Of a stretch of 33,356 nucleotides of DNA, positions 11,516 through 32,031 are shown in pieces; within the stretch, counting starts at the first letter, position 1; each line of letters starts with the position of its first letter. A model generated the notes under the pieces. That model made no database searches and was not told the DNA's origin. It was given only the letters and a program-made list of their open reading frames with translations. Source of the DNA: a virus. The position numbers and the translations under genes were made by a program. Location of the stretch: positions 1-33,356 of the IMG/VR virus record IMGVR_UViG_2757320712_000001; one strand, written 5' to 3'.

Positions 11516-11722
11516 TCAACTAGTTAATATTTTTAAAATTTTTTTCTTATCAATCTTTTTATCAATTTTTTGAGGTATATAAAATCCTTCATGAAAATCA
11601 TACGGTTCACTGTACCATATTTTTATTTTAGGATAAACTGGTTCACCATACCATAAGTTTTTATTCAAATTACATGGCTCAATATTCCACTCTTTTTTCT
11701 TCTTAATGATCATGTTTATCAT
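11516..11722 (-). CDS. Hypothetical protein, 68 aa
   Basis: Co-oriented, 4 nt after the virion-protein gene. Internal repeat WYGEP / WYSEP. Confidence 0.55.
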   Translation of the reverse strand: MINMIIKKKKEWNIEPCNLNKNLWYGEPVYPKIKIWYSEPYDFHEGFYIPQKIDKKIDKKKILKILTS

Positions 11723-11726
11723 CTCT

Positions 11727-13142: not shown

Positions 13143-13168
13143 AAAATGTTAATATAAAACTCAATTCT

Positions 13169-13188
13169 AATACATAATATAATGTATA
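13169..13188. promoter_or_regulatory. 20-bp operator, copy 4
   Basis: AATACATAATATAATGTATA; TTTATATT follows 10 nt downstream on the minus strand. Confidence 0.6.
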
Positions 13189-13261
13189 TTAGTTTTACAT
13201 TTTGATCTCATCATATTCAATTCGTAAAGTATATATTTGTCATAATTTGAGTTACAAATAT

Positions 13262-13720: not shown

Positions 13721-13996
13721 CTTGTGTTTTTTAATGTTTTTTGCTACATATACAGATTCAATAATTGCAAGAAGTGTTTCAAGTTGAACATCATCTTCTA
13801 TAAGCATTCCAAAAAAATAACCAAAGAAAATAATTAAAGAATCCATACTTATTTTTTCATCTTTGTAGCTTTCTAGTATATCGTAAAAAGCATATTCTAG
13901 ATAGCTTACTTGTTTTTCTATAATTTTAAGTGAGTTTTCATCTGGATGAAAAGTTTCTTTGAAAACTTCTATTATTTTTTCTAAGCCTTTGTCCAT
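13715..13996 (-). CDS. Hypothetical protein, 93 aa
   Basis: ATG ORF with a TATA-GTC element upstream (TGAC at 14023-14026). Confidence 0.7.
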   Translation of the reverse strand: MDKGLEKIIEVFKETFHPDENSLKIIEKQVSYLEYAFYDILESYKDEKISMDSLIIFFGYFFGMLIEDDVQLETLLAIIESVYVAKNIKKHKL

Positions 13997-14068
13997 ACTT
14001 ATCTATATAAAAATTTTCATTATGACAAATTTAAACATATATATGTCATAATTTTAAAAGTTTAGCTG

Positions 14069-14434
14069 ATGAATTTTAGACAATCTGGAAAATATTATGA
14101 GTATAAGACACTTAATTATCTAGAAAAAAACGGTTATAAAGCTATAAGAATTCCAACATCGGCAACTGGAAAACAGCCAATTCCAGACATTATAGCAACT
14201 AAGAATAATATAATTTTTCCAATTGAAGTTAAATCAACTTCACAAAGTTATGTTATAGTTGATAATTTTCAAATTGATAAATTGTTTAAGTTCTGTGAGA
14301 TATTCAATTTTTGTAATTGTAAACCGTTAATACTAGTTCATTATAAAAAATATAAAAATGTCATAATATATAATTTGAGTCAAGATGTCAGAGAAAAAAG
14401 TAAAATCAAATTTACCTTCAGAGCTAACAGCTAA
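14069..14434 (+). CDS. hjc: Holliday junction resolvase (Hjc-like)
   Basis: GKYYE...L.KNGY..IR, PDIIA, IEVKST PD-(D/E)xK motifs; 121 aa. Confidence 0.93.
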   Translation: MNFRQSGKYYEYKTLNYLEKNGYKAIRIPTSATGKQPIPDIIATKNNIIFPIEVKSTSQSYVIVDNFQIDKLFKFCEIFNFCNCKPLILVHYKKYKNVIIYNLSQDVREKSKIKFTFRANS

Positions 14435-14594
14435 ATTGTATTTAGCACTTGATGACTTAACTATGGCATTAGCTACTTGCGATGATGAAAATATCCGAAA
14501 GTCTGAAGTTTTCAAAAAAGCTCTTGAAGTTGTGAAAATTGTAAAAGAGATGAGAAATGCTAAAATAAAAACTGATGAAGAAGAAAAATCCTAA
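14385..14594 (+). CDS. Hypothetical protein, 69 aa
   Basis: GTCATA promoter element inside the resolvase gene (about 14360). Resembles a small conserved SIRV ORF next to the resolvase. Confidence 0.7.
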   Translation: MSEKKVKSNLPSELTAKLYLALDDLTMALATCDDENIRKSEVFKKALEVVKIVKEMRNAKIKTDEEEKS

Positions 14595-14924
14595 ATTCCA
14601 ATTTTTTTCTTTTTAAGTAGACAACACATTTGATATAACCCTTTTCATCTAAAATTTTTTTCTTTATAAATCTTTTTACGCCGATATTTTACGTAATTTA
14701 TCGTTAGCAAAAACAAAAATCTCGAGAGATAAGAATTTAAAAAGATTTCTTGTAAATTTACGACTTTAGTTTATATACTCATCATTACAATTTCTTAGCA
14801 AGATGATGAGAAAAAATATCATCTGAAGAATTGAAAGAACTTTTATTCTTGTATTTTTTTACATAAAACAATTTTTACTTTTACAACAACATTTATAATT
14901 TTATAATATACACATGATAATAAT

Positions 14925-17900: not shown

Positions 17901-18101
17901 ACTTACTTGGAATATGCAAGAAATAGAAGACTTAGGACATACGTAAACGACATAATTTCAACAATTAATTTATTGTTTGAAAAGCAGAAAATTGATTTAA
18001 ATACAGCACAATCTTATTTACAACAATTAAAACAATACGGTTTAACTAATGAAGAAATTCAATTAATCTTACTAAATTGGCAATTACGTTCAAATTACTG
18101 A
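14925..18101 (+). CDS. Large virion / terminal fibre protein (SIRV2 ORF1070-like)
   Basis: 1058 aa, helical, amphipathic N-terminus, 48-aa internal repeats from aa 483. Confidence 0.85.
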   Translation: MSFLLNLGDLGTFFSDELTALENFANFLSSEFINFFSAVVNDIENVVSFIGQAISDIPTFMQKIANNFLQILQNFVQTAIPVVSGFLTFLEQQIINVFQDLSSLASTFINDAYSFLQGVVNAFANLISTIVQDFLNNFGQNMKHISSAISQLTQFLTPFIAPVTLGKFLPAIIDKLAEILPEVEIDLAPVGLGGKIPINFGEIVKAFAETTVDFLNEVRQEIQTTLKEFIKEPFISDFKITAREIFNEIGLGDLPFADPPFKQIANWVGARSFSEIKDHLRETILLTGFPAWFTDAYLESPVDDYIPRNPLFRPVNIRDVILASQYGILDFSAVSQYAENNLITPKTAKLMYNNQTARLLQRVVEEGIRQFVVTPDKAYEEIINNVNLAGKDLYLKVFSLEYNYSVQRIVRQFLRSLLSRALTNFGRPYIDLKFLESTVQKLFKELNYPAEVQSVFNVMIEQSQIVYTNQLLLTQLEQITRLGIFDEKKIKAELKANNFNEQIALTILNYELQYVKLQYILKEFQFKLQNYIISTKDAEHQLKSLGFDSSIISEILFEYQTAPLVKYQISQIESLAKKGYLSVDEIKKQLHALEVIKEFEDIFINYTNQEIQISSTLSIAKEQLRNFLIDSKAVENELKVLKINEYLINEIIQEEYNINIAKLQLSYIETLAKNLYYDQAQLSGELSKILKDKTAIDLYTQKFYYEYIYPKIINYYTQLARHGIITDISKLPKEIVQYEINPEIQIFQLTTELEYIKSLLKDLQITPDKAIQELEKLGMQKDLANLIVQTYIPTIYSLHTIIGNIVNGQLFKVGKVPVNLGNAESELRKLGIPENQIKVILDQYASSFGLEIWRKFLPSLSHIETAIKYNFPDKQLIDYSFIPSEFLNLYSNLYQHEIIGQYVQSLKSEYVELLVYGVQNIQLENLLKQYGINEALLGVLKLSAQIRKILTAYQELYITPSKALQISEYVSNPTQLLQKVFSEFQVPSDLQNTYLEYARNRRLRTYVNDIISTINLLFEKQKIDLNTAQSYLQQLKQYGLTNEEIQLILLNWQLRSNY

Positions 18102-18134
18102 ATTTGTAATTTGAAAATGTTTTTTTATCCTTCA

Positions 18135-18218
18135 AATTTACAATTCCAAACGTTCACTAGTTCAGCCTTAATTTAGAAAAAAAGAACTTCTAATTTGGCT
18201 TCACTGAGATCTAACTAT
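18135..18218 (-). ncRNA. Putative structured non-coding element, copy A
   Basis: Intergenic and homologous to 24017-24078 (3' block 30/35 identical). Core GTGA-AGCC...GGCT-GAAC. Confidence 0.4.
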
Positions 18219-18252
18219 TAAATAAATTTGTCATATTTTTTAACTTTTACAT

Positions 18253-19065
18253 ATGAGTGTAAACTTGTGTCATTATGAAGCTGAAAATATATCATTTAAA
18301 GATTTAGAAAATTTACAAGGTATGATATATTATGAAATTAAATACGACGGAACTCATATCTGTTTAAAATATGAAAATGAGTTAAAAATTAACACCAGGA
18401 AAGACATTCCACATGATAAAGGATTTCAAAATTTATTTTATCAAGTTCTAAATATTGATGAAATTATAAAATATATAAAACAAAATCCACAATATATTAT
18501 CCATGGAGAACTTATACATAAAAAGACATCAGCACTACAAATCCATACAAATGAAATTCCGAAATTTATCATATATGATGTCTTTGACAAAGAAGATAAT
18601 AGATATTTAAATCCAACTGAAGTTGATAGCGAAATTTATTATTGGTATCCTGAAATTTGTTTAGATTTAGATGATTTGATTGATATTATAACTAAAGAAA
18701 AACTTGAGGGTTTAGTAGCTAAAATTTACAATTCACAAACTATAAACTGTGAAGAAGGAAAGAATTTCAATTTATGCGTTTACAAATATAAGCCATATTT
18801 TTCAACTTTAGGAGTAATATTCAAACCAATTAAAAGAGAAATTGATATTAGACAATTATCATTTTTATTAGGAGAAATTGATAATGACTTAAAGAATAAT
18901 AAAGATGGTTGGTACGAAAATCATCAAGATCTTTACAAGTTCTTTATCGAAAATAAAGATAAAATAATACAGATACTACAAAACGAAAACTTTATATCAC
19001 AAATTGAGAAAGAAACACATTTAGACATTAAGAAAATAAAAGAATACATTATAAACTTCAAATGA
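18253..19065 (+). CDS. ATP-dependent ligase-family nucleotidyltransferase (Rnl2-like, RNA ligase-type architecture)
   Basis: Motif I EIKYDG (K30), Ia R49, III IHGE (E86), IIIa FIIYD, IV EGLVAK, V YKYK. Helical-looking C-terminus with no evident OB fold. Has its own TATA-GTC promoter. Confidence 0.85.
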   Translation: MSVNLCHYEAENISFKDLENLQGMIYYEIKYDGTHICLKYENELKINTRKDIPHDKGFQNLFYQVLNIDEIIKYIKQNPQYIIHGELIHKKTSALQIHTNEIPKFIIYDVFDKEDNRYLNPTEVDSEIYYWYPEICLDLDDLIDIITKEKLEGLVAKIYNSQTINCEEGKNFNLCVYKYKPYFSTLGVIFKPIKREIDIRQLSFLLGEIDNDLKNNKDGWYENHQDLYKFFIENKDKIIQILQNENFISQIEKETHLDIKKIKEYIINFK

Positions 19066-19087
19066 TGATAACAATTACAACTTGCTA

Positions 19088-19107
19088 TATACATAATATT
19101 ATGTATA
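19088..19107. promoter_or_regulatory. 20-bp palindromic operator, copy 5
   Basis: TATACATAATATTATGTATA; TTTATTTT-TGTC follows 11 nt downstream. Confidence 0.65.
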
Positions 19108-19149
19108 AGCTATGTGTGTTTATTTTTGTCAAGTTAATAATTTTTTCAT

Positions 19150-20886
19150 ATGAGCTTACCTTACAAAGTACGTTTTAAATTGCCATTAGAATTTCTGACT
19201 TTGCAAGACTGGAATAACTTTGTACAAAATTTACTATTTATAAATCAATATGGTCCTGCTAAACTTCTCCAGTATTATCAAAATGGCAATTTTCAGAATC
19301 TGGATGAAGTTATTGCAAAATATCTATATGTTTCAGCTTTGAAAGTTATGGGATATAATGTTCTTCATAATTTATCACAACCTCAGGCTTATACATTTGG
19401 TGAAGGAAATCAACAGCCATTTAAAAGCATGGCAAATAAATCTACTGTAAGCTTTCCATATTCAATACCATTTGAATTTATACAATTTTATCCGATATCT
19501 GAATTGTCTAACTATAAATTTCCAGTTTTTCCAGTTGAGAAATTACAAGTTCAATTATCACAAGTTAGTAAACAATTACAATTATTAATTCCTAGACTAG
19601 TTTCGAAAATTATAACTCCAAATCAAATTGCTGGAACACAATTCCAATTTTCTGGTACTGCAAATGTACAAACATTAATAGAAGACTATCTAGATTCTCA
19701 ATATTTGCAAACTTGGAGAGAAATTACAATTCAGAATTTAGGCAGTTCTGCAGTTCAGATAAACAATTCAATTTATTTAATGCCTAAAAATTGTTTAAAA
19801 ATAACTGCAAGTTCTCCATCAGAAATTCAACTAACTGCTCAAACTCCAACTTTACTAAGTGAAGAAATTGAATTTGTTGGAACTCCCATAACATTTTATA
19901 CAATTACAATAACAAATAGTCAATCAGACCCGACTCCTTCACCATTTCAACAATTACTAAATTTAAATTTATCATCTATATTATCAAGCTCATCACAACT
20001 TTTGAATTTACAATTTTGTTTAGACGTACAATGTCAAACTCCGCTTTACGCGTGGATTGAAAGTTACAATTCTAATTTATCAAGTGTTTATATTTGGATT
20101 AATTTGCCAACTTCAATTCCTGCTAATTCATCAATTACAATATATATGTTTGTTAGAAATTCAAATCAATACCCTTATACTGGGATAGCTCCGCAACTTA
20201 CTTCTACATACGCACAATATGATAATGGAGAAAATGTATTCTTAGATTACTGGAATTTTCAAGGTACATCAGTACCAAATGGAATAAATGTATATGAAAG
20301 TGACGGAACTGTAACATTCAATAATGGTGTAACAATAAAAGGCGGAACCTCAGCAATTGGTGGTGAAAACGGTATAGCAACTGTTAAATCATTTTCTCCT
20401 CTAATAATAATTGATTATTATGGAACACAATCAACTAGTCCGTCTGGAGAATCTTGGGCATGGAATATGGTGGGATTTAGTAATTATATATCCAGTAGTG
20501 ATCAACATCCGGCTGGCGGTGGGACATATACACTTATAGATTTTGAAGATGGATATAATGCAAAGCCAGAGTCAAGTCAAGGCGGAAGCGTTACAGATGG
20601 AACTCTTTCCACACCTTCTAACAATTTATTTCCAGCATCAGTTTGGACACATATCTATACTTCTTCAGCATATTATACTTATCAAAATTATCAAACTAGT
20701 ACTGGATATATAACTGGGGCATCAAACACCGCATCTCTACCTTTTGAAATAATGGTAGGAAATAATGAGGCAAGTTATGCCCCTGATGGAATGACAGTTT
20801 ATTGGTTAAGAGTTAGGGCTTATCCACCAAACGGTACAATGCCTTCAAATTCACAACCACAAAAGACAATAATTCTAATAGGCTGA
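19150..20886 (+). CDS. Virion protein with DUF2341-like / lectin-like C-terminal half (SIRV2 ORF564-like)
   Basis: ITITNSQS..TPSPFQQLL...LYAWIE...IWINLP..IPANSSITIY...YDNG..VF pattern; Ser/Thr/Gly-rich beta region; operator upstream. Confidence 0.75.
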   Translation: MSLPYKVRFKLPLEFLTLQDWNNFVQNLLFINQYGPAKLLQYYQNGNFQNLDEVIAKYLYVSALKVMGYNVLHNLSQPQAYTFGEGNQQPFKSMANKSTVSFPYSIPFEFIQFYPISELSNYKFPVFPVEKLQVQLSQVSKQLQLLIPRLVSKIITPNQIAGTQFQFSGTANVQTLIEDYLDSQYLQTWREITIQNLGSSAVQINNSIYLMPKNCLKITASSPSEIQLTAQTPTLLSEEIEFVGTPITFYTITITNSQSDPTPSPFQQLLNLNLSSILSSSSQLLNLQFCLDVQCQTPLYAWIESYNSNLSSVYIWINLPTSIPANSSITIYMFVRNSNQYPYTGIAPQLTSTYAQYDNGENVFLDYWNFQGTSVPNGINVYESDGTVTFNNGVTIKGGTSAIGGENGIATVKSFSPLIIIDYYGTQSTSPSGESWAWNMVGFSNYISSSDQHPAGGGTYTLIDFEDGYNAKPESSQGGSVTDGTLSTPSNNLFPASVWTHIYTSSAYYTYQNYQTSTGYITGASNTASLPFEIMVGNNEASYAPDGMTVYWLRVRAYPPNGTMPSNSQPQKTIILIG

Positions 20887-20893
20887 CATTAAA

Positions 20894-22552
20894 ATGTCTT
20901 CAAATTATTGTGTTAAATTAACGCAAGAAATTTTAGTATTGTCTATGACTACAGCAAATCCTATAAATTTTACATCTTTACAATTTTCATTATCTGTAAA
21001 TTCTTTGGTTATTTTCCTATTCTCGAAATATCCATTTAATTCTGGTTATGCAAATAATTTTTGTGTAAATCAAGACGAATTTGGTTTCGCTCAGGTTGGA
21101 CAAAGTTTCAACATAGATTTAACAAATTATCAAGGATATTATATGTTAATTTTAATTTATCCTGAAGGAATTAATTTAACTAGTGTTAGAAGTTGTGATA
21201 TTGTTCCAAATTTAACTATGACTTTTCAAAATACAACAATTTCGCCAATTGAAAGTGAAACAATAATTAATAATTTTGATGGACAATTTGAAACAGATTT
21301 TTGTGCATGTTATCAAGGTCAAAGTCATACAATAGGAACTACATGTTCAAATTCAAATTATGTTCCAGCAATTTCATTAAATAATCTAAATAACCAATTA
21401 GTAATTATAACTTGTCAAGCATTTTATCCTACAAGTAATACAACTGTAGAATTTGTAACGCCAACTACATGCTCTTATTTTGGTGCATATTTAACAGCAG
21501 AAATAACATTTATTGGAAATCAACAAGTCATAGATTTTCTAAATAGTAACAATATATCATATTCTATTTCTTCTTCTACTTCATGTCAAGCATTTTCAAG
21601 TATATCGCCATGCGGATTACCTTGCAGATCAGTTTACCAAATTTCACAATTATTATCTCCGCCGCTTAAATATTCATTGATTACCTCAAAATTGTGGAAT
21701 GAAATAGTTAATGATTTATATTTAGCTTACACCATATTTAAATATATTAATTATTTATCTCAATTTCCATATATACAAAATATATATCATGCAATTTCAG
21801 ATTTCTACAATTTCTATGAAAACTTTCAACCTTACGTATTTAAACCACTTATTCATGCTAGAAAAGGACTTCCTTTGACAGCTGATTATTTCAATTCTTT
21901 AATAGATACAATTATAGAATTAGCAAATTTTGCTAATATACAATTACGACAAGGAATTTCTCATGTCCAGCCTGACCAAATCGTAAAATCTTTACAATTC
22001 GATAATATAATATATAATGTAAATCAACTTCTAACTTTTAATTATAATCAATACTTTTTACTTAGTTGTTATGGGAATGAATTTAATAATTTATTGAGTT
22101 CAATAACTACATTCCTAAATGTCTTAATTTCGAATCCTATGATCAATATCACAATTCCAAATAATGTCTATATTAAAAACTTCCTAATTTATAATAATTT
22201 TAACACTATTACTATTTATGGGACAATTGCTAATCTTGTAATGAATTTAAATTCTGGAACTATACAATTACAAGACTTTTCATCTATAAATTTTCTCGTT
22301 TTACAAAATAATTCAGGAATAATAGAACTCAATAATGAATCCAATATACATAATTTATCAATTAATCAAAATCCCGGAACTATTAATATCAACAATAATT
22401 CAACTGTAAATACAATACAAATTCAAAATAATAGTGGAATAATTAATATCAATGATAATGCAATAATTGAAAATCTAATTTGTAGTCAAAATATTGGAAC
22501 TGTAAATATTTCATCGAATGCGATAGTTATAAATAATCAGTGCAGTTCATAG
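20894..22552 (+). CDS. Putative virion / adhesin protein with Cys-rich N-terminus and C-terminal beta-solenoid repeats
   Basis: Co-transcribed with the 578-aa gene. About five 20-aa Asn/Ile repeats at the C-terminus. Confidence 0.7.
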   Translation: MSSNYCVKLTQEILVLSMTTANPINFTSLQFSLSVNSLVIFLFSKYPFNSGYANNFCVNQDEFGFAQVGQSFNIDLTNYQGYYMLILIYPEGINLTSVRSCDIVPNLTMTFQNTTISPIESETIINNFDGQFETDFCACYQGQSHTIGTTCSNSNYVPAISLNNLNNQLVIITCQAFYPTSNTTVEFVTPTTCSYFGAYLTAEITFIGNQQVIDFLNSNNISYSISSSTSCQAFSSISPCGLPCRSVYQISQLLSPPLKYSLITSKLWNEIVNDLYLAYTIFKYINYLSQFPYIQNIYHAISDFYNFYENFQPYVFKPLIHARKGLPLTADYFNSLIDTIIELANFANIQLRQGISHVQPDQIVKSLQFDNIIYNVNQLLTFNYNQYFLLSCYGNEFNNLLSSITTFLNVLISNPMINITIPNNVYIKNFLIYNNFNTITIYGTIANLVMNLNSGTIQLQDFSSINFLVLQNNSGIIELNNESNIHNLSINQNPGTININNNSTVNTIQIQNNSGIININDNAIIENLICSQNIGTVNISSNAIVINNQCSS

Positions 22553-23029
22553 TTTACAAAATACACATTCTTTATTATCATCAGTTATAAAAGTTAGAAC
22601 TGTTCCGTATAATTTTCTCATTAATTCAAAACGATTTTCTGTCCAATCGTGAATAGCTATACAAAATTGTTTATACTTTTGCAATTGAGAAAAATCTAAC
22701 TTAGCCTCACATCCTTCACAATCCATTATAAAAATGTCAGTATTTGGATATTGATTTCCAGTCCATTCTCCATTTACATCAACTTTATCGCAAATATTAA
22801 AGTCTTTACAAACTTTTTCTTTAAATCTTTTATTTAACTCATCACTTTTTTCATAGCCAACAATTTTTTTAGCACCTTTTAACAAAAAATATAAAGCTGA
22901 ACTTCCACAATCATTACCAATAATTGTAATTGTCTTATTTTCAACTTGCAATTTTCCATAAGCTAGATCAAACTCGTGCCAATAACAGCATTCCAATTTA
23001 CAAAAATAATCTTTATAATTAAAACTCAT
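22547..23029 (-). CDS. SAM-dependent methyltransferase (FkbM-like)
   Basis: IIGNDCGSSALYFLLKGAKKIVGYE motif I region, and MDCEGCE. Confidence 0.85.
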   Translation of the reverse strand: MSFNYKDYFCKLECCYWHEFDLAYGKLQVENKTITIIGNDCGSSALYFLLKGAKKIVGYEKSDELNKRFKEKVCKDFNICDKVDVNGEWTGNQYPNTDIFIMDCEGCEAKLDFSQLQKYKQFCIAIHDWTENRFELMRKLYGTVLTFITDDNKECVFCKL

Positions 23030-23031
23030 GA

Positions 23032-23955
23032 TTAAATGACCTCAAATAGAGCATAAACTTTAGCTTTTCCAGTTGCCCAAGCATAAACATTACTAGGATT
23101 ATTTACATGAATTTCTATTGAATCATTTTGGAGAATTGGAAAGTTATTATATAAATTATTGCCAATATAAACGATATAATTACTGAGATTTTGGAGAATT
23201 ATTCTTACAGTTTCTATGGATGGGCCTGTATATAAAGGACTTGGAGTAGTAGAAACATCAAGTTGAAGGCCTTCTATAGTTGGCGGACTTAAGTACAAAC
23301 CAAGTTTATTAATTGTATTTGCCAAACCGACAGTTGCTAAATATACATATGTAAGTGTATAAGCTATAGAATTCGCAATAAAATATATTGCACTTTGTAA
23401 CGAAATTCCTAATTTTTTAGCTATTGAGTTTATAGTTTCGTAAAATGAAATATAGAAATTCTGTAAATCTTCTTTTATTATAGTCCTAGATTGTTCAATA
23501 TTTGAAATTAAATAATTTACGACACTATATATCGTTTCGTATAAAGCCTGAGTATCTTTGCTTAAAATTAAAGTAGCAGTTGGAACAGCAACTATAATTT
23601 TCTCGTAAATTTCCTGAGGAAGTTTAACAATTGAATAGTATAATTGTTCATTAGAGTATAAAATTGCATTTATTTGTTGATTTGCAGTAGCTATAAATCC
23701 AGCGATATATATCGGATCTAACTCTGTAAGTACTGGTTGTCCAGCTACATAAATTTCATTATAAAAAAATCCGGAACTAGCATTTATTGTTCCTGGAATT
23801 GTTAAATTTCCATTTTTCAAAATTGAAGTTACTGCATTTCCGCCTGTCTCATACAATTGAATTAAAAGCAAAGATGCGGTATTCCACATTCCAGATGTCA
23901 ATCTCTGGAAAGGCGAAGCCAACAAACTCGAAATTGAGGCATATGTAATGCTCAT
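23032..23955 (-). CDS. Probable virion protein, 307 aa, partly paralogous to 19150..20886
   Basis: Shares an LT...WN N-terminal motif and an IxxQNL...V.I.N...PS module with the 578-aa protein. Operator upstream. Confidence 0.75.
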   Translation of the reverse strand: MSITYASISSLLASPFQRLTSGMWNTASLLLIQLYETGGNAVTSILKNGNLTIPGTINASSGFFYNEIYVAGQPVLTELDPIYIAGFIATANQQINAILYSNEQLYYSIVKLPQEIYEKIIVAVPTATLILSKDTQALYETIYSVVNYLISNIEQSRTIIKEDLQNFYISFYETINSIAKKLGISLQSAIYFIANSIAYTLTYVYLATVGLANTINKLGLYLSPPTIEGLQLDVSTTPSPLYTGPSIETVRIILQNLSNYIVYIGNNLYNNFPILQNDSIEIHVNNPSNVYAWATGKAKVYALFEVI

Positions 23956-23997
23956 AGTTTAATATTTCTGAAATGACAAAAATAAGAACTCATAGCT

Positions 23998-24017
23998 TAT
24001 ATATCATATAATGTATA
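23998..24017. promoter_or_regulatory. 20-bp operator, copy 6 (2 mismatches)
   Basis: TATATATCATATAATGTATA; CTTATTTT-TGTC follows 11 nt downstream on the minus strand. Confidence 0.55.
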
Positions 24018-24078
24018 TAGCTTGATCTAATTGTGAGGCCGATAAGGCCGAACTAGTACAAGTTTGGAATTATAAATT
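24017..24078 (+). ncRNA. Putative structured non-coding element, copy B
   Basis: GTGA-GGCC-GATAA-GGCC-GAAC hairpin, which can be drawn as a kink-turn. Homologous to 18135-18218. Confidence 0.4.
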
Positions 24079-24182
24079 AGAAAAACATGCTTAAAATTTT
24101 AGTTTATGAATTCAGAATCAAGTACGCAGTTCTCATAACGAATTAACAATATTTTAATCTGTCATATCAGTGAAATTTAATT

Positions 24183-24788
24183 ATGAAAATCTTTACTTTT
24201 GCAGGATATACAAAACATTTAGAAGAATTAAATTTTGATTATGTAGTTGTAGATAAAACTTTTAATGATTTAACTCAAGAGTTAGAGCAAAAATTTAAAG
24301 ATAAAATTATTTGGAATGAGACAAATAGTGATATAAGATGGATCAGAATTGCTAAACAATTGTTAAAAATTCTAGATATAGCAAAAGAACAAGATGATGA
24401 TATATTTGCAATCATAGATAGTGATTTAATTGTTCCAAAAATTAGAGAAATTAATCCACAAAATAGAATTCTCACGCTTTGCTATTGGCTTTATTATGAT
24501 TGGACAAATGAAATAAGACCTTTCTGTTCAGGAACAAATTATATATTTAATAAAAAATATATTGCAATTTTTGAATCTGTAATTAATGTTTATCTAGAAA
24601 AAGAATATTATAAAGAATTTCCAATAGATATATTTCTACATGACCATATTCTACATTTAAATGTAGCTAAGTTAGGGACTATTCATTATGTTAAAACTCC
24701 TGAAGGAGAGAAAAAAATGGAATTTAAATTTGAAGATATTCCCCAAATTGTAAAGCATATTCCAGAATTTGTTTTAATATCTTGGTGA
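24183..24788 (+). CDS. GT-A-like glycosyltransferase
   Basis: VVVD...IIDSDL DxD motif; paired with a GT4 gene as in SIRV. Confidence 0.7.
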   Translation: MKIFTFAGYTKHLEELNFDYVVVDKTFNDLTQELEQKFKDKIIWNETNSDIRWIRIAKQLLKILDIAKEQDDDIFAIIDSDLIVPKIREINPQNRILTLCYWLYYDWTNEIRPFCSGTNYIFNKKYIAIFESVINVYLEKEYYKEFPIDIFLHDHILHLNVAKLGTIHYVKTPEGEKKMEFKFEDIPQIVKHIPEFVLISW

Positions 24789-24795
24789 GGACAAA

Positions 24796-25860
24796 TTGTC
24801 AAATATTATTTATTACGTTTATCCTCAACATCATGATGTTTCATTTAAATTTGTGGCTAAAGAACATATAAAAATGTTAAGAGAAAAATATACAGTTTAT
24901 GAAATTCCAGCTTTATCATTTTATCAATTTACTCCTTTCAGATACCCAATTTCAATTATTCACCCGTTTTTTTATTCTATGTGGCACTGGGGAAAAGTAG
25001 AGTTTTCATTTTTTGAACAATATAGATCTAAAGTTAGTCAAATTATTGGAGTTGAAGTAGCTGACAGTGATAGAATTTCAGAAAAATTTATAGATTATGC
25101 AAATAATTATGCAGATAGACTAATTGGAAATTCAGAATGGACTGTAAACGCTTTTAAAAATTCTGGACTAAAAATTCCAATTTATAAAGTTGTACATAAT
25201 TTTAATGAGAGATTATTGGCAAAAGATAATGAGTTAAAAATTGATGAACAAGTTAAATATATTGAAAAAGTTAAAAATGAGAAGAAAATTAAGCTAATTT
25301 TCATATCGCTATGGCATTCTGATTTTAGAAAAGGTGCCGATTTATTCCATGCAATAGCTAGACAACTTCAGAAAGAAAGAGATGATATTTATTTCCTAGT
25401 AAAAAGTGGAGGGCCTAGGACAGATTTCCAAGATTTGAGAATGTTTAATTTCACGGGAAATACAGATTTTGATAATATAGTTAAAATGTACAGAATTTCA
25501 GACTTATATCTTCTGACTTCCCGTGGTGGAAGTTTTGAATTAAATGGACTTGAGGCATTTATTTCAAAAATTCCGACAATCGCCACAAAAGGCGGTGCAT
25601 GGGAAGAATATTTTCCATCTCAATTGAAAGATTTGTTAGTTGATAGTTGTAGATTTCCAGACGTTTTGTGGAATAATCCAATTCATATTGGTCAAGGAGT
25701 AGAAATGTGCATGGATAAAGCAGTAGAAAAAATATTAGAAGTTCTGGACAATTTAGACAATTACAAAGCAAAAATTGAAGAAAATTATAATTTTTGGTTA
25801 GAAAATTTCAGCTATAACGCCGTAAAAAAGCAACTTTTAAATGCAATTGAAAAATCTTAA
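24796..25860 (+). CDS. GT-B (GT4-like) glycosyltransferase
   Basis: FRKGAD and SRGGSFELNGLEAF signatures. TTG start behind SD GGTGAGG overlapping the upstream stop. Confidence 0.9.
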   Translation: MSNIIYYVYPQHHDVSFKFVAKEHIKMLREKYTVYEIPALSFYQFTPFRYPISIIHPFFYSMWHWGKVEFSFFEQYRSKVSQIIGVEVADSDRISEKFIDYANNYADRLIGNSEWTVNAFKNSGLKIPIYKVVHNFNERLLAKDNELKIDEQVKYIEKVKNEKKIKLIFISLWHSDFRKGADLFHAIARQLQKERDDIYFLVKSGGPRTDFQDLRMFNFTGNTDFDNIVKMYRISDLYLLTSRGGSFELNGLEAFISKIPTIATKGGAWEEYFPSQLKDLLVDSCRFPDVLWNNPIHIGQGVEMCMDKAVEKILEVLDNLDNYKAKIEENYNFWLENFSYNAVKKQLLNAIEKS

Positions 25861-25886
25861 ATTGGTCATAAAACTCAAACTGTAAT

Positions 25887-27083
25887 ATGGGATTTCAAAG
25901 AAAAAGTTCAGGAAGTATAAAAAGCTTTAGTTCATTGGACATTTTTTCAATTAATTTGTTATATATGGGAATTTTAAGCGGAATAAGTTATCCATTATTT
26001 GTCTCTGAAATGATGAAAAATGTAAATCTATTATTTGCTATTTTAATAGCATCAGTCTTTGAAATTCCGCTTTTAGTAATGTATTATATACTGACAAAGA
26101 AGATACCGCTTAACGGCGGAGATTATGCTTATATTCGTTCTACATTTTCGTCAAAATTCTATACAGTTTTTGGAATTTCACTCTGGCTAATTTACGTATT
26201 TTCTGCACCAGTATTAGCGAACTTAGTACTCCTAAATTTCAATATTCCAATAATTGATAAGTTCTTTATTTCAGAATTATTATTCGCTATTGCTTTATTT
26301 AGTATAATTAAAAAGTCAGTGTATGCATATTTAGTAGACGGATTAGCAATTCTACAAATACTTGTATCATTAATTTTGCCAATTTCAAGTTTTCATTTTG
26401 AGATACAGAATTTTACAATATCTAATACTTTACTTTCAGCTTTACTATTTGACTTGTCAATGTTTCTATTCTTGAACGCTATAAGTTATATAGCTGGAGA
26501 GACAAAGAATGTAGATAAAAATGTGAAAATTGGATATTTTTTGAGTTACTTTGTAGTTACCATATTAGCAATTTTCGATAGTTTTTCAAACCTAAATATT
26601 CTATTTGTTCTATTTCCGATATGGTATATGAGCTATTTATTTGTAACTTCCATGATACAAAGTCGTTTAGTGCAAAATTTAGCATTTGATAAAATCTTAC
26701 CTGAGAAATTTGCAAAAATATCGCCAAATGTCTTACTATTGATCTTTATCGGTGATACTATTACAAATATTCTAGAAAATTTGTTAAACTTTTCAATTTC
26801 ATTTGGATTTGATGGCTTATTATTTATTTTCTGGAACTTTATAATTGTAAGTTTTGCATTTCTAAAATTAACAAATAATAAACTGTTATTTTCAATAGTA
26901 ATGATTAGTCTAATTTTACAGATCTTCATATTTTTCTATCTAGGAATGCAAAATCAAATATTCTATAATTTCGTAATTGAGGGAAATATCATATATGCAA
27001 TATTGAGAATTGTAATAATGCCGATCATTGGAGGAATTATGTATTTAATAAGAAGAAAAGTTATAAACGCTGAGTTAAAATGA
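25887..27083 (+). CDS. APC-superfamily (amino acid / polyamine permease-like) membrane transporter
   Basis: Many transmembrane helices; GGDYAYIRSTF, AGETKN..KN and SR....AFDKILPEKF.K match APC family loop motifs. Confidence 0.75.
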   Translation: MGFQRKSSGSIKSFSSLDIFSINLLYMGILSGISYPLFVSEMMKNVNLLFAILIASVFEIPLLVMYYILTKKIPLNGGDYAYIRSTFSSKFYTVFGISLWLIYVFSAPVLANLVLLNFNIPIIDKFFISELLFAIALFSIIKKSVYAYLVDGLAILQILVSLILPISSFHFEIQNFTISNTLLSALLFDLSMFLFLNAISYIAGETKNVDKNVKIGYFLSYFVVTILAIFDSFSNLNILFVLFPIWYMSYLFVTSMIQSRLVQNLAFDKILPEKFAKISPNVLLLIFIGDTITNILENLLNFSISFGFDGLLFIFWNFIIVSFAFLKLTNNKLLFSIVMISLILQIFIFFYLGMQNQIFYNFVIEGNIIYAILRIVIMPIIGGIMYLIRRKVINAELK

Positions 27084-28015
27084 AATTGGTATTTGGCGTT
27101 AATACTTCTACAAGTTATTTTTTTAAAACTAATTTTCCAGTTCTAATTAATCAGTTAAGATTTAAGAAAAAAACATGGAAAAATGAAACATGGGTCGATA
27201 GTGGCGGATTTCAAATTATAATGCATAATCTAAAAATTTCTGTAAATGATGTCTTACAAAAGTATAAAAGTGTTAATGCTTATGCTTTCTTTTCGCTGGA
27301 CATACCAAGTATTTTTTCACCTCTTAACAAAAAAAATTTCGAATATTTTGAGTATCTATATACGAAACTCGAGTATATAGAAAAAATTATACCTGTGATA
27401 CATATTTATCCACTTCAAGATGTAGACGAAGCTATAGATTTTTATAAACAATACTCTTACTATTTCGCAATTGGTGGAATTATGACTTCCAGCAAAATGA
27501 AAGTTTTAATTTATACATTTCCATGGATTTATTATATAAGAAAAAAAGTTCCTTATCTGCACGTTTTAGGCATGTCAGGCCCATATTTTTTACAAATTTT
27601 TAATAATATGCAAAGTATGGATACCGCAATTTGTTCAACAATTTCAGCATTTAAAGAAATAATTTGGTTTAATGGATCTAGGAGATATATTGGAAATATG
27701 AAAACAAAAAGGGAAAGATATAAAATTACAAAAGACGAAAAAGAACAACTTTTTAAATTTTTAGACAAACATAACTTTCCATTTGAATATGACTTGAGTA
27801 ATAGAAAAATTATAGAGCTTATTAATGCTTACATTTTATTCTATAATAATTGGAAAATTAAGAATAAATATACAGAATATTCAGAAAAACTTAAGAGAAT
27901 GGGAATGGATAGTTTAACAAGTGAGTTAATTAGAAATTATAAATTTGCTAATGAAATATTGAAAGAGAAAAAGAATAAAAAGAAAAAAGAAGATGAATTA
28001 GAAATACAGATATAA
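27080..28015 (+). CDS. Guanine transglycosylase, TGT/DpdA-like
   Basis: DSGGF (D40), SLDIP (D74), IPVIH, IGG, HVLG, SMD (D181). No CxCxxC Zn site. ATGA overlap with the transporter gene. Confidence 0.85.
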   Translation: MKLVFGVNTSTSYFFKTNFPVLINQLRFKKKTWKNETWVDSGGFQIIMHNLKISVNDVLQKYKSVNAYAFFSLDIPSIFSPLNKKNFEYFEYLYTKLEYIEKIIPVIHIYPLQDVDEAIDFYKQYSYYFAIGGIMTSSKMKVLIYTFPWIYYIRKKVPYLHVLGMSGPYFLQIFNNMQSMDTAICSTISAFKEIIWFNGSRRYIGNMKTKRERYKITKDEKEQLFKFLDKHNFPFEYDLSNRKIIELINAYILFYNNWKIKNKYTEYSEKLKRMGMDSLTSELIRNYKFANEILKEKKNKKKKEDELEIQI

Positions 28016-28089
28016 AAAAGAATTAAACCTTTACATTTTTCAGTGTGCTAATTTTTTAATGTCATACTACAAACTTTACTTGAACAAAA

Positions 28090-28800
28090 ATGAGAAAGAT
28101 ATACGCAAATATAAAACAAATTAGAGTTAGTACGTCTATACCACAAAACGCACAACTTCTATGGCAAAATAATAACTTAGCTCTATATTATACCTATGAT
28201 CCTTCTCAAGGAGAAGTTGACTGGATTATGCAAAATAATACAAATTCTTCTATATTAGTGTCATTGTTAAGAGGTGCTGAATTAAATATTAATGGACAGA
28301 CTTATACAATTCCAGATTATCTATTTGGAAATGCTTTTGCTGAGGTTTACTTTGCTAACGGTCTGTCTAATTTTATAACTGACTTAAACAATATTCCGCT
28401 TTATTCCTTAGCAATTATAAATAATAATGATGGAGTTAGAACTATAGCTTTTGTCTTCCAAATACTACCAAATTCTGTGATAATAGCACCAGAATATGGA
28501 TTTACTGGATTACAAAACATAAATGGACAATTGTTAGAAACAACTCCAATTAATCAAAATCTATTCGGAATAATTTATGATTTTAGTGAAATTATAGAGT
28601 ATAAATATCAAACTGGAATTAATGTGAATTATCCTCCAGACCCATACATGGTTCAAAGTTACCAATTTCTAGTTAATAATCTAGGTCAAATCATGACTCA
28701 AAGATTAATACTAGAAATACCAGAAAGCGATATAAATGCTGTAAAATCCCTAGTTTCAGATTTTCAAAAAGTAATAGATAAATTAAAGAAGATATTTTGA
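28090..28800 (+). CDS. Hypothetical beta-rich protein, 236 aa
   Basis: Long ORF with its own TATA-GTC promoter. Asn/Gln/aromatic-rich like the virion proteins. Confidence 0.8.
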   Translation: MRKIYANIKQIRVSTSIPQNAQLLWQNNNLALYYTYDPSQGEVDWIMQNNTNSSILVSLLRGAELNINGQTYTIPDYLFGNAFAEVYFANGLSNFITDLNNIPLYSLAIINNNDGVRTIAFVFQILPNSVIIAPEYGFTGLQNINGQLLETTPINQNLFGIIYDFSEIIEYKYQTGINVNYPPDPYMVQSYQFLVNNLGQIMTQRLILEIPESDINAVKSLVSDFQKVIDKLKKIF

Positions 28801-28822
28801 GCTAAGTCAATTTTTCATTTTT

Positions 28823-29095
28823 TTAATGATGGAAACAATGAGACCATAAGTCTACGAAAATTCCAGCTATAATTATCAGTTGAAAAATTATGATCAGTTT
28901 CAAGATTTCATTATGAACTGAGAAATAGAGAATAAAAGACAAAATAAAGAGAATTATTAAGCCGTAAAGGTCATGGGTTTTTCCATGTAAAAAATAATGA
29001 AACATGTTACAACTCATAAATTTAAGTTGAAAAATGACAATTAAAAAATTACTTAATAATATGTTTTCCAAATTAACAAAGCTATTAAATACCAT
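28823..29095 (-). CDS. Putative small membrane protein (start uncertain)
   Basis: Hydrophobic; fills the gap, but overlaps the upstream ORF by 43 nt. Confidence 0.4.
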   Translation of the reverse strand: MVFNSFVNLENILLSNFLIVIFQLKFMSCNMFHYFLHGKTHDLYGLIILFILSFILYFSVHNEILKLIIIFQLIIIAGIFVDLWSHCFHH

Positions 29096-29358
29096 AATTG
29101 TTCTTTTGGTATTTCGGCAAATATACCGTTTTTAGCAAATTTATACGCATTATAAAGTCCTTCTATTTCATGTGTTATATCTTCAATTTTCCATTTTTCA
29201 GGTTCCATAATTCCATTTTTTGTTTTAATTTCAATTGATGTTTTCATGTCCTTTATCCGTATTTTTAATTTATTATATTCATTATTTCCTTTCTTAACTT
29301 TTACTAATTGCATAGAAAAATTTAATTCTAAATCCTTTACAACTCCTTCTTCTGTCAT
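29053..29358 (-). CDS. Hypothetical protein, 101 aa; paralogue of 1522..1824
   Basis: Start moved to ATG 29358. TATA-GTC promoter at about 29390-29403. Shared motifs with ORF 1522..1824. Confidence 0.8.
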   Translation of the reverse strand: MTEEGVVKDLELNFSMQLVKVKKGNNEYNKLKIRIKDMKTSIEIKTKNGIMEPEKWKIEDITHEIEGLYNAYKFAKNGIFAEIPKEQLWYLIALLIWKTYY

Positions 29359-29472
29359 TTTTTCATTCCCATAAAAAAGCATATAATTTATGACAAATTT
29401 AAAAATGTCTCAAGTTTTTAATTTTCAAAATAATAAGTTAAGAAAAAGAAAAAAATATAAAATAAGAAAAGA

Positions 29473-30027
29473 TTAACTTAACAATTGATCTAACTCTTCA
29501 TCAAAAATTATATCAATTTTTCCATCTTTAATCACTATTTTACCTGACAAATTTTCTCCGAAATAATGCGGCAACATTCCAAATCCCACTGTTCTAGTTC
29601 TTCCGCTAATTTTGTATTCAATTTCTGCATTATTATTACACCAAAGATGTTTCACATAACCTAATGAACCTGCAGGAGACATTAACACACTGGTTTGTTG
29701 ACATTCGCCAGATAATACTTTAACTGAAACATCGCCTCTAAATCCACTAGGAATTTCAATAACATATAATACTGAATTTGGCTCATATTTTATTACTAAA
29801 GTTCCTTTTTCTGTAACTGTCATTTTCGCATTTTGTAATTTAAGTGAAATTGAATTAACTGACTCAAATTCTATGAAACTTCCATTTTCATAATTTTTGA
29901 CAAATCTTCCGCTGATATAGATAATTCTTCCTCTCTTTCTGGAACCGATACCAGTAAGATCTAATTGTTTATCTTCAAAATATGGATATTTTCCATCTTT
30001 TAATTGAATTGGTAATTTGTAATTCAT
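29473..30027 (-). CDS. Hypothetical beta-rich protein, 184 aa, co-transcribed with the acrIIIB1 homologue
   Basis: SD GAGGTGA overlapping the upstream stop. Motifs PSGFRG and SPAGSLG. Confidence 0.8.
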   Translation of the reverse strand: MNYKLPIQLKDGKYPYFEDKQLDLTGIGSRKRGRIIYISGRFVKNYENGSFIEFESVNSISLKLQNAKMTVTEKGTLVIKYEPNSVLYVIEIPSGFRGDVSVKVLSGECQQTSVLMSPAGSLGYVKHLWCNNNAEIEYKISGRTRTVGFGMLPHYFGENLSGKIVIKDGKIDIIFDEELDQLLS

Positions 30028-31410: not shown

Positions 31411-31602
31411 TTTCTTTCCTCCAAAAAACAACTAGCTAGATATGACAAATATATAACTTTTTTTCTTTTTCGGTTTATAAACTTCTTAAACTGGTAGAAT
31501 TATTATTTGAAATTTGAAAAAAATTATTGATAAAGATAAATAATAAAGACAACAAAAATATAAAAATAAAAGAGAAAAATAGAAGATAAAAAAAGAAATA
31601 AC

Positions 31603-31770
31603 TTACCAACACTCATTCATAAATTTCTTAACTTGTCTCTCTGTTACACCTAATATTTTAGCGATTTCAGAGATTGAATATCCTTTCCTAGCTAACTCAT
31701 GACTTAGACTTACCATGTCATCTCTTGACTGAATATAATATCTTGTTTGACCTATTTGAACTGTTTTCAT
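31603..31770 (-). CDS. HTH DNA-binding protein, Gp1 family, short SIRV1 ORF56a-like form, 55 aa (not in the ORF track)
   Basis: MKTVQIGQTRYYIQSRDDMVSLSHELARKGYSISEIAKILGVTERQVKKFMNECW. Confidence 0.85.
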   Translation of the reverse strand: MKTVQIGQTRYYIQSRDDMVSLSHELARKGYSISEIAKILGVTERQVKKFMNECW

Positions 31771-31791
31771 TTTCTCATTCACAATATAATC

Positions 31792-31821
31792 TATGCAAAG
31801 ACTAGTATTTAAAGTTTTCTC
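31792..31821 (-). promoter_or_regulatory. Third variant of the strong promoter
   Basis: GAGAAAACTTTAAATACTAGTCTTTGCATA aligns with GAGAAAGATTTATATATAAGTTTTTACATA at 1991. Confidence 0.65.
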
Positions 31822-31869
31822 TAATCTTTTACCTTTATAGATTACACCATTTTTCTTATAAAAGAGTAT

Positions 31870-32031
31870 TTAATCTTTATATTTCTTTTTTAACATTCTG
31901 ACTAATTCTTCTTCTTCAATTCGTTTCATTTCCTGCCTAAATTCCAATAAGAAAAAGATAAATAACGATTCATAAAAAATTCCAGCAATAATTAAAAGCC
32001 ATATTGGATCTAATGATGCATTTAAATTCAT
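31870..32031 (-). CDS. Small membrane protein, 53 aa (not in the ORF track)
   Basis: MNLNASLDPIWLLIIAGIFYESLFIFFLLEFRQEMKRIEEEELVRMLKKKYKD; GTGAG SD-like sequence upstream. Confidence 0.6.
   Translation of the reverse strand: MNLNASLDPIWLLIIAGIFYESLFIFFLLEFRQEMKRIEEEELVRMLKKKYKD

What the first reader, a model, noticed from the sequence alone, without database searches (positions are those of the whole stretch)
25887..28015. Transporter coupled to a DpdA-like transglycosylase: possible precursor-import plus DNA-modification module
The 311-aa protein keeps the TGT catalytic set (DSG, LD, PVxH, GG, HxLG, SxD) but lacks the Zn site and PUA domain of tRNA-modifying TGTs. That pattern resembles viral DpdA enzymes, which insert 7-deazaguanines into DNA; an archaeal-virus subfamily, DpdA4, is known. 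It is translationally coupled (ATGA at 27080-27083) to an APC-type permease. No folE/queD/queE/queC genes are present, so the base must come from the host archaeosine pathway or from uptake. The permease may supply it (inference). Modified DNA could resist restriction or Cas nucleases. The pair is recalled from SIRV2, but to my knowledge its function is unresolved.
Basis: partly seen in the sequence, partly recalled or inferred. Interest (0 to 1): 0.72.

Follow-up and report, generated by a model that had tools for sequence, protein, structure and literature searches.

The report
Rudivirus permease plus DpdA-like transglycosylase operon
A Sulfolobus rod-shaped virus carries a two-gene operon, a slimmed-down host-type amino-acid-family permease followed by an enzyme of the kind that swaps guanine in viral DNA for a 7-deazaguanine; the enzyme was catalogued in 2019, and the idea that the permease feeds it is new but only weakly supported.

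Summary
Window 25887-27083 encodes a 398-aa, 12-helix APC-fold permease. Window 27080-28015 encodes a 311-aa TGT-fold enzyme. The two genes overlap in ATGA.

The enzyme keeps the catalytic Asp set and the DpdA-type His. It has no Zn site and no PUA domain. It falls in the same PHROG as phage 9g DpdA and STSV2 DpdA, not in DpdA4 (DUF6610). Hutinet et al. 2019 already list rudiviral orthologues as DpdA-only viruses and report that Sulfolobus islandicus encodes all archaeosine-pathway genes, so preQ0 import is not needed.

Linkage to the permease is real but not obligatory:
- All SIRVs have the pair adjacent, and it moved between genome arms as a unit.
- A metagenomic lineage and SRV have the pair adjacent in other arrangements.
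- SBRV1 has the two genes 4.6 kb apart.
- SSRV1 and ARV2 have only the permease.
- STSV1 and STSV2 have only DpdA.

The permease derives from Sulfolobales APC permeases and resembles AdiC, ApcT and SLC7, not nucleobase carriers. SIRV2 lost both genes spontaneously without a growth cost in a CRISPR-null host.

Verdict: a known DpdA-type singleton, probably modifying viral DNA with a host-made base. The permease coupling is unproven (about 15%). No earlier scan note covered this locus.

The parts
25857..25862 (+). TATA-like box TTAAAT, ending 25 nt before the permease ATG. It is the candidate promoter of a near-leaderless bicistronic mRNA.
   Evidence: Sequence. A TT(A/T)A(A/T) box plus a GTC motif at the same distance is conserved in American and Icelandic SIRVs although the upstream genes differ. 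Promoter function is inferred, not shown.
25887..27083 (+). Minimal APC-superfamily permease (398 aa, 12 TM helices, loops trimmed), orthologue of SIRV2 gp14/ORF399.
   Evidence: phrog_8289 E 2e-200. Pfam AA_permease_2 scores only 16.5 bits, below the cut-off of 27. AF2 pLDDT 87.7. Foldseek top hits are AdiC, GkApcT, ApcT and SLC7. It sits in one clade nested in Sulfolobales APC permeases. dN/dS 0.08-0.17.
27080..27083 (+). ATGA start/stop overlap joining the two genes.
   Evidence: The junction ranges from -4 to +24 nt in all SIRV-type loci.
27080..28015 (+). DpdA-like (9g/DpdA1-type) guanine transglycosylase: TGT TIM barrel, a helical C-terminal extension and a Lys-rich tail. Orthologue of SIRV2 gp13/ORF310.
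   Evidence: phrog_887 E 4e-70, the same PHROG as 9g DpdA and STSV2_15. VIA Z 19.9 to TGTs. Invariant D40, D74, H108, G132, D181. No Zn motif. dN/dS 0.09-0.21.
28036..28040 (+). T5 run 21 nt after the stop codon: candidate archaeal oligo-T terminator of the operon.
   Evidence: Sequence only. Inferred.

Best explanation
This is a two-gene accessory operon of a Sulfolobus islandicus rod-shaped virus.

The enzyme. The second gene encodes a DpdA-type (phage 9g/DpdA1-like) transglycosylase. By analogy with TGT and DpdA chemistry:
- Asp181 attacks C1' of a flipped-out deoxyguanosine in viral dsDNA and forms a covalent enzyme-DNA intermediate.
- Asp40 acts as the general acid/base.
- A 7-deazaguanine made by the host's own FolE-QueD-QueE-(Gat)QueC pathway (preQ0, or CDG as in STSV2) is inserted in place of guanine.

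The likely result is sparse or motif-specific modification that blunts host nucleases.

The permease. The first gene is a host-derived, loop-trimmed APC permease. It is co-transcribed and translationally coupled. Its substrate is most likely an amino-acid-like or polyamine-like solute, so it is an auxiliary uptake function. It is not required to supply the base.

Shown: gene structure, folds, catalytic motifs, family placement, gene linkage pattern, host pathway presence, dispensability in SIRV2.

Inferred: DNA as the substrate in SIRVs, the identity of the base, the protective role, the permease substrate.
For: - TGT fold: Z 19.9, rmsd 3.1 A over 260 residues; Foldseek E 2e-6 to arcTGT.
- Motifs are invariant. 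Their spacing, 40/74/108/131-132/181, mirrors the bDpdA active-site residues D95/D130/H181/G206-207/D256 (PMC10164549).
- The His replaces the Gln of tRNA TGTs and aligns with PCFH of phage 9g DpdA.
- The protein shares PHROG 887 with 9g DpdA (E 2e-98), which inserts preQ0 into DNA, and with STSV2_15. STSV2 virion DNA contains dCDG (PMC10516641).
- There is no PUA or other C-terminal tRNA-binding domain, and there is a Lys-rich tail.
- In other lineages the gene sits beside dCTP deaminase/dUTPase or thymidylate synthase.
- Host preQ0 genes are present: Hutinet 2019 for S. islandicus; QueC and arcTGT in two Sulfolobaceae genomes and in the S. acidocaldarius control.
- The permease has the APC fold and its nearest structures are AdiC, ApcT and SLC7. 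Its cellular kin are Sulfolobales APC permeases.
- Some viruses have only the permease and others only DpdA.
- SIRV2 lacking gp10-14 grows like wild type (PMC6315595), as expected for an accessory or counter-defence function.
Against: - No one has measured modified bases in any rudivirus DNA.
- At least one DpdA singleton virus, Mycobacterium phage Orion, has unmodified DNA.
- STSV2 is modified at only 0.04% of G, and the source of its base is unknown.
- The sequence link to TGT/DpdA is remote: no Pfam, NCBIfam, PADLOC or PDB-sequence hit.
- The structural Zn site conserved in bDpdA and in the TGTs is absent.
- Tight operon coupling and adjacency retained in three different arrangements hint at a functional tie to the permease that this explanation leaves unexplained.
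Confidence: 0.5

Rival explanations
1. Import-and-insert module. The APC permease imports the 7-deazaguanine base, or another substrate base, that the transglycosylase inserts into viral DNA. This would make the virus independent of host precursor supply.
For: - ATGA-coupled operon in every SIRV-type locus, 17 of 17 IMG/VR contigs plus all isolates.
- The pair lies in opposite genome arms in Icelandic and American SIRVs while the backbone is collinear, so it moved as a unit and kept its own TATA-like box.
- The genes are adjacent in two further, different arrangements: DpdA then permease with a 1-nt overlap in L024/L026, and convergent with overlapping 3' ends in SRV.
- Some phages encode the preQ0 transporter YhhQ, so a virus-encoded precursor carrier has precedent (PMC6884629).
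Against: - The hosts make preQ0.
- SSRV1 and ARV2 keep the permease without any DpdA; ORF28-207, next to the permease, is unrelated.
- STSV1/2 have DpdA without the permease, although the STSV2 host is reported to lack the pathway, which is exactly where import would be needed.
- In SBRV1 the two genes are 4.6 kb apart on opposite strands.
- L025 has DpdA and no permease within 8.9 kb.
- The nearest structures and sequences are amino-acid/polyamine carriers, with no NCS1-type hit in the top 50.
- Local inversions keep neighbours adjacent without any selection for it.
Confidence: 0.15
2. tRNA (or other RNA) modification, as in the classical annotation. The enzyme is a trimmed archaeosine-type tRNA-guanine transglycosylase that alters host tRNAs to favour viral translation.
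For: - The best structural matches are tRNA TGTs, including arcTGT at Z 19.7.
- The databases name it queuine tRNA-ribosyltransferase.
- From my own knowledge, not checked here: the PUA domain of arcTGT is reported to be dispensable for archaeosine formation.
Against: - The host already has a full-length arcTGT of 510 aa.
- The viral protein lacks all C-terminal tRNA-binding domains and the Zn site.
- It carries the DpdA-type His and clusters with DNA-acting DpdA.
- Its STSV2 homologue accompanies dCDG in DNA, in a host reported not to modify tRNA with 7-deazaguanines.
Confidence: 0.15
3. Different chemistry on the TGT scaffold. The enzyme might be a DNA glycosylase that removes G without re-insertion. 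It might instead conjugate a base to a protein, like CBASS Cap10, or insert a non-deazaguanine base, possibly a solute brought in by the permease.
For: - TGT-fold enzymes have been remodelled for nucleobase-protein conjugation (abstract of bioRxiv 10.1101/2025.04.06.647259, seen).
- The family is very divergent.
- The base source and product in STSV2 are unexplained.
Against: - The full base-binding and catalytic set of DpdA and TGT is retained.
- The Gly-rich loop after the sixth strand resembles that of 9g DpdA.
- No PADLOC match.
Confidence: 0.08

Closest known systems
Phage DpdA1 (Enterobacteria phage 9g and Escherichia phage CAjan DpdA)
   Same: About 310 aa, made of the TGT TIM barrel only, with no PUA domain and no CxCxxC Zn motif. 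Same PHROG 887. Shares DSG, P-x-x-H, GG, H-x-x-G and (S/C)-x-D motifs.
   Different: Phage 9g and CAjan co-encode FolE, QueD, QueE and QueC and modify 25-32% of G. The rudiviral gene is a singleton with no pathway genes. Pairwise similarity is detectable only by profile methods (hhalign E 1.4e-4). Activity is untested.
STSV2_15 / STSV1 DpdA (Bicaudaviridae)
   Same: Closest homologue outside Rudiviridae whose virus's DNA has been tested for modified bases: 36.5% identity over 87% of the protein. It also comes from a Sulfolobales virus. STSV2 virion DNA carries dCDG at 0.04% of G (PMC10516641).
   Different: It is paired with ArcS2 (DUF5591 core) and sits beside thymidylate synthase, with no permease. 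Its host is reported to lack the pathway.
Bacterial DpdA (Salmonella Montevideo; structure described in PMC10164549)
   Same: Same fold, same catalytic Asp pair and base-binding Asp/His with matching spacing, and dsDNA as substrate.
   Different: bDpdA has large insertions and a conserved CXCX2CX22H Zn site, and it needs the DpdB ATPase. None of these is present here.
DpdA4 (Halovirus HVTV-1 gp69, DUF6610/PF20314)
   Same: An archaeal-virus DNA transglycosylase distantly related to TGT.
   Different: A different family. The window protein has no PF20314 hit at E<=1. DpdA4 viruses are haloarchaeal tailed viruses, many of which carry preQ1 genes.
APC transporters AdiC, ApcT, GkApcT and SLC7, and Sulfolobales APC permeases
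   Same: 12-TM LeuT-type fold with TM1 and TM6 breaks. Conserved P-x-x-G-G-D-Y, A-G-E-x-K and F-D-x-x-L-P-E motifs shared with cellular Sulfolobales homologues.
   Different: 398 aa against 466-554 aa in the cellular homologues aligned here. The external loops and the C-terminal GI(D/E)L...EIPPE tail are deleted. It scores below the Pfam cut-off. No member of this subfamily has a known substrate.
YhhQ (COG1738) preQ0 transporter, encoded by some phages
   Same: Precedent for a virus carrying a 7-deazapurine precursor importer (PMC6884629).
   Different: An unrelated fold and family. Hutinet et al. saw no correlation of YhhQ with any group of the phages they analysed, including the DpdA-only group.

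Membership tests
TGT superfamily | (beta/alpha)8 TGT-type barrel | tested here: met
   VIA Z 19.9, rmsd 3.1 A over 260 residues (7nq4); Z 19.7 (1j2b). All top hits are TGTs.
TGT superfamily | Three active-site Asp residues: general acid/base, base-binding, nucleophile | tested here: met
   D40, D74 and D181 are invariant. They align to the DSG, LD and S-x-D motifs of a Sulfolobaceae arcTGT.
TGT superfamily | Structural Zn site CxCxxC...H | tested here: not met
   No CxCxxC and 0-3 Cys in 16 archaeal-virus homologues. The arcTGT CxCxxC aligns to non-Cys residues.
TGT superfamily | Pfam PF01702 match above the gathering score | tested here: not met
   No Pfam hit at E<=1. A profile search of PDB sequences also finds nothing.
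DpdA (phage 9g/DpdA1 type) | Sequence-family link to phage 9g DpdA, the validated DNA-modifying enzyme | tested here: met
   Both are in phrog_887 (3.7e-70 and 2e-98). hhalign E 1.4e-4 over 148 columns. Listed in the DpdA column by Hutinet 2019.
DpdA (phage 9g/DpdA1 type) | Conserved His at the base-binding position (H181 of bDpdA) where tRNA TGTs have Gln | tested here: met
   H108 is invariant. It aligns with PCFH of 9g DpdA. The identity of the TGT residue as Gln rests on my own knowledge.
DpdA (phage 9g/DpdA1 type) | Inserts a 7-deazaguanine into DNA | not testable with these tools
   Needs LC-MS of virion DNA or an enzyme assay. The only indirect support is dCDG in STSV2 DNA (PMC10516641).
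DpdA4 | DUF6610 (PF20314) domain | tested here: not met
   No Pfam hit at E<=1.
bDpdA / Dpd system | Zn site, Ins1-Ins8 insertions, DpdB partner | tested here: not met
   No Zn motif. No PADLOC match. At 311 aa the protein is too short for the insertions.
APC superfamily (AA_permease_2) | LeuT-type 5+5 fold with 12 TM helices | tested here: met
   AF2 pLDDT 87.7 with 12 helices and TM1/TM6 breaks. Foldseek hits AdiC at E 7e-8 with TMq 0.67.
APC superfamily (AA_permease_2) | Pfam PF13520 match above the gathering score | tested here: not met
   16.5 bits against a cut-off of 27. Most cellular homologues pass: P0171 42 bits, P0177 45 bits.
Known 7-deazapurine transporters (YhhQ/COG1738, ECF QueT/QrtT) | Homology to those families | tested here: not met
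   The only Pfam hit is AA_permease_2. Atlas neighbours are all AA_permease.

The most novel reading that the evidence does not exclude
The trimmed APC permease could be a dedicated carrier for the transglycosylase's base substrate, either a 7-deazapurine or another guanine analogue. The pair would then be a self-contained 'import and insert' DNA-modification cassette, and the permease would be the first APC-family 7-deazapurine transporter. This would also explain why the two genes travel together in most rudiviral lineages.
Probability: 0.15. Interest if true: 0.7.

Novelty: new member of a known kind. Interest (0 to 1): 0.35.

Why it matters
No rudivirus DNA has been examined for 7-deazaguanines. 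This is so even though SIRV2 is the main model for archaeal virus-host conflict and its DpdA-type gene has been on record since 2019.

If SIRV DNA is modified, that would bear on how CRISPR and restriction results in Sulfolobus are read. It would also extend DpdA chemistry to hyperthermophilic, A-form-packaged genomes.

The test is unusually cheap. A spontaneous SIRV2 mutant lacking exactly gp10-gp14 already exists alongside wild type. The permease question, why a non-enveloped archaeal virus keeps a host-type solute carrier under purifying selection, is open either way.

Tried and rejected
- Pfam, NCBIfam and PADLOC scans of the enzyme gave no hits.
- A profile search of PDB sequences returned only chance IMPDH matches at E about 2.
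- I tested SSRV1 ORF28-207, next to the permease, as a cryptic DpdA or as the homologue of the window's 201-aa upstream gene. It is neither.
- I tested ARV1 ORF318 as a cryptic DpdA. It is not.
- The gene neighbourhood of the cellular permease homologue has no queuosine or archaeosine genes and was uninformative.
- The search for related loci with the diverse permease alignment failed because no conserved stretch was available. With the DpdA alignment it found no lineages beyond SIRVs and STSV1/2.
- Sequencing runs: no RNA holder is listed, and only small-share hot-spring metagenome contigs hold the stretch. I laid no reads.
- Literature searches for SIRV2 ORF310/ORF399, for rudivirus DNA modification, or for a paper linking the permease and the transglycosylase found nothing beyond Hutinet 2019, Cui/Hutinet 2023 and Mayo-Munoz 2018.
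- The supplements of PMC10516641 are not held.
- I did not fetch HVTV-1 gp69. The DpdA4 test rests on the absence of a PF20314 hit.
Full report
**What the window is.** The window is a complete rudivirus genome of 33,356 bp at about 25% GC. The finding region is 92% identical in DNA to SIRV4 and 73% to SIRV1. SIRV11 is the only virus of the SIRV4-11 series missing from the hit lists. This is an inference.

**Check of the observation.**
- Two ORFs lie at 25887-27083 (398 aa) and 27080-28015 (311 aa) on the + strand. They overlap in ATGA.
- Both N-termini are conserved in homologues, so the start codons are right.
- dN/dS against six SIRV-type loci is 0.08-0.21 for both genes. dS is near saturation for most pairs.
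- A TATA-like TTAAAT at 25857-25862 ends 25 nt before the permease ATG. The same box and a GTC motif recur at the same distance in Icelandic SIRVs, where the upstream gene is different. The pair therefore probably has its own promoter and a near-leaderless mRNA. This is inferred.
- The junction between the genes ranges from a 4-nt overlap to a 24-nt gap in every SIRV-type locus.

**The enzyme.**
- Pfam, NCBIfam, PADLOC and a profile search of PDB sequences find nothing. PHROGs places it in phrog_887 (E 4e-70).
- An AlphaFold model built on 13 homologues (pLDDT 75, pTM 0.76) matches only tRNA-guanine transglycosylases. Foldseek gives E 2e-6 to arcTGT. VIA-align gives Z 19.9 with rmsd 3.1 A over 260 residues to human QTRT1, and Z 19.7 to arcTGT.
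- D40-S-G-G43, L73-D74, P105..H108, G132, H161-x-L-G164 and D181 are invariant down to 35% identity.
- Profile alignment to a Sulfolobaceae arcTGT (510 aa) pairs DSG, LD, H-x-x-G and S-x-D. It places the arcTGT CxCxxC Zn motif opposite non-Cys residues.
- The residue spacing reproduces the bDpdA active site D95/D130/H181/G206-207/D256 (PMC10164549).
- No homologue has a CxCxxC motif, and neither does phage 9g DpdA.
- Phage 9g DpdA inserts preQ0 into DNA (PMC6884629, PMC10516641). It is in the same PHROG (E 2e-98), as is STSV2_15 (E 6e-56).
- hhalign pairs the rudiviral P-V-I-H, GG, H-V-L-G and S-M-D with PCFH, GG, HGFG and CDS of phage 9g DpdA.
- STSV2_15 is 36.5% identical over 87% of the protein. 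STSV2 virion DNA contains dCDG at 0.04% of G.
- The protein is therefore a DpdA of the 9g/DpdA1 kind, in a clade specific to Sulfolobales viruses.
- It is not DpdA4. DpdA4 is DUF6610/PF20314 of haloviruses, and there is no such Pfam hit.
- It is not bDpdA, whose Zn site and insertions are absent.

**Prior art.** Hutinet et al. 2019 list SIRV1, 2, 4, 5, 10, 11 and SRV (among '12 Ligamenvirales') in the DpdA column of their Supplementary Data 1, in the 'DpdA only' group. They state that S. islandicus encodes all G+ pathway genes. The enzyme assignment is therefore already published. I found no measurement of modified bases in rudiviral DNA in the searchable literature.

**Precursor supply.**
- The viral genome has no QueC, QueD, FolE, DUF5591 or radical-SAM match.
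- Two Sulfolobaceae genomes carry QueC in 488- and 501-aa frames, the size of Gat-QueC, and also carry arcTGT.
- The S. acidocaldarius control is positive for QueC, PTPS and GTP cyclohydrolase I.
- The host can therefore supply preQ0 without import.

**The permease.**
- An AlphaFold model (pLDDT 87.7, pTM 0.89) shows 12 TM helices with breaks in TM1 and TM6.
- The best Foldseek hits are AdiC (E 7e-8, TMq 0.67), GkApcT, ApcT and the SLC7 transporters. No nucleobase carrier appears in the top 50.
- An exhaustive profile search of 1.84 billion representatives finds only 66 relatives. The non-viral ones are Sulfolobales and other APC permeases carrying PF13520.
- In a maximum-likelihood tree all viral permeases plus one cellular Sulfolobaceae cluster (P0171) form one clade with 99/99 support. 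This clade is nested among Sulfolobales APC permeases.
- The SIRV protein keeps the family motifs but has lost the external loops and the C-terminal tail.
- No member of this subfamily is characterised. NCBIfam gives only a far sub-threshold TIGR00909 match.
- The chromosomal neighbourhood of P0171 is uninformative.

**Linkage across genomes.**

| Lineage | Arrangement |
|---|---|
| SIRV-type contigs and isolates | Adjacent, same strand, permease first; 17 of 17 contigs that extend far enough |
| L024 and L026 (metagenomic rudivirus-like) | dCTP deaminase, then DpdA, then a 483-aa permease with a 1-nt overlap |
| SRV | Adjacent and convergent, with overlapping 3' ends |
| SBRV1 | Both present, 4.6 kb apart on opposite strands |
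| SSRV1 and ARV2 | Permease only |
| STSV1 and STSV2 | DpdA only, with ArcS2 |
| L025 | DpdA, no permease within 8.9 kb |
| ARV1 | Neither gene |

- Against SIRV2, the backbone (window 7110-25860) is collinear with SIRV2 13561-29513. The pair, however, lies after the ORF356-type glycosyltransferase in the right arm here, and in the left arm on the other strand in SIRV2. It therefore moved as a unit.
- The association is stronger than chance neighbourhood but is not obligatory. Each gene is evidently useful alone.
- The DpdA gene is just as consistently found beside nucleotide-metabolism genes: dCTP deaminase/dUTPase in SRV, SBRV1, L024 and L026, and thymidylate synthase in STSV2. This fits a DNA-directed role.

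**Experimental data already published.** SIRV2 gp13 (ORF310) and gp14 (ORF399) are the two genes. A spontaneous deletion of 5678-8557 removed gp10-gp14 during passage in CRISPR-null hosts. The resulting SIRV2MII yields as much virus as wild type in S. islandicus LAL14/1 delta-arrays (PMC6315595). The pair is dispensable in that setting. This is what one expects of a counter-defence or niche function, but it says nothing about the function itself.

**Verdict.** The best reading (about 0.5) is a DpdA-type DNA guanine transglycosylase that uses a host-made 7-deazaguanine. It is co-expressed with a host-derived APC permease whose substrate is probably an amino-acid-like solute and whose role is separate.
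- The import-module idea keeps about 0.15.
- tRNA modification keeps about 0.15.
- Other chemistry on the TGT scaffold keeps about 0.08.

The decisive experiment, nucleoside LC-MS of wild-type SIRV2 against SIRV2MII virion DNA, needs only material that already exists.

Noticed in passing
window 5917-6312 and 25885-28019, against SIRV2 31599-31994 and 6446-8583: Relative to SIRV2, two modules have swapped genome arms while the central backbone stays collinear. One is the pyramid-protein (PVAP/ORF98) gene and the other is the permease-DpdA pair. The gp16-gp19 block (window 2830-5973) is also inverted.
   Followed up: partly
window 18106-19064: No tblastx match to SIRV2 between the ORF1070 and ORF564 homologues, so this is an insertion relative to SIRV2.
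   Followed up: no
window 6312-7110: No homologue of SIRV2 gp23 (dCTP deaminase/dUTPase) is detected anywhere in the window by tblastx. In SRV, SBRV1 and the L024/L026 contigs that gene sits next to the DpdA gene.
   Followed up: partly
L024:234-3160 and L026:49-3014: Two short metagenomic contigs define a divergent rudivirus-like lineage. Its DpdA is about 39% identical and its permease 27-31% identical to the window's. The operon is dCTP deaminase, DpdA, permease, and the permease is full-length (483 aa), not loop-trimmed.
   Followed up: partly
L029:8001-9467 (Sulfolobus sp. MAG, 583-kb contig): A chromosomal 488-aa APC permease (cluster P0171, 34 members) falls inside the otherwise viral permease clade with 99/99 support. 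This suggests gene transfer between Sulfolobaceae and rudiviruses. The direction is unresolved.
   Followed up: partly
L003:3378-5465 (SSRV1): In SSRV1 the permease, without any DpdA, directly follows a gene annotated as a putative transcription initiation factor B homologue.
   Followed up: no
window 24183-25860: Only 7 nt separate the phrog_5113 gene from the GT4 glycosyltransferase, and only 26 nt separate the glycosyltransferase from the permease. Read-through from these genes into the pair is possible in addition to the pair's own TATA-like box.
   Followed up: no
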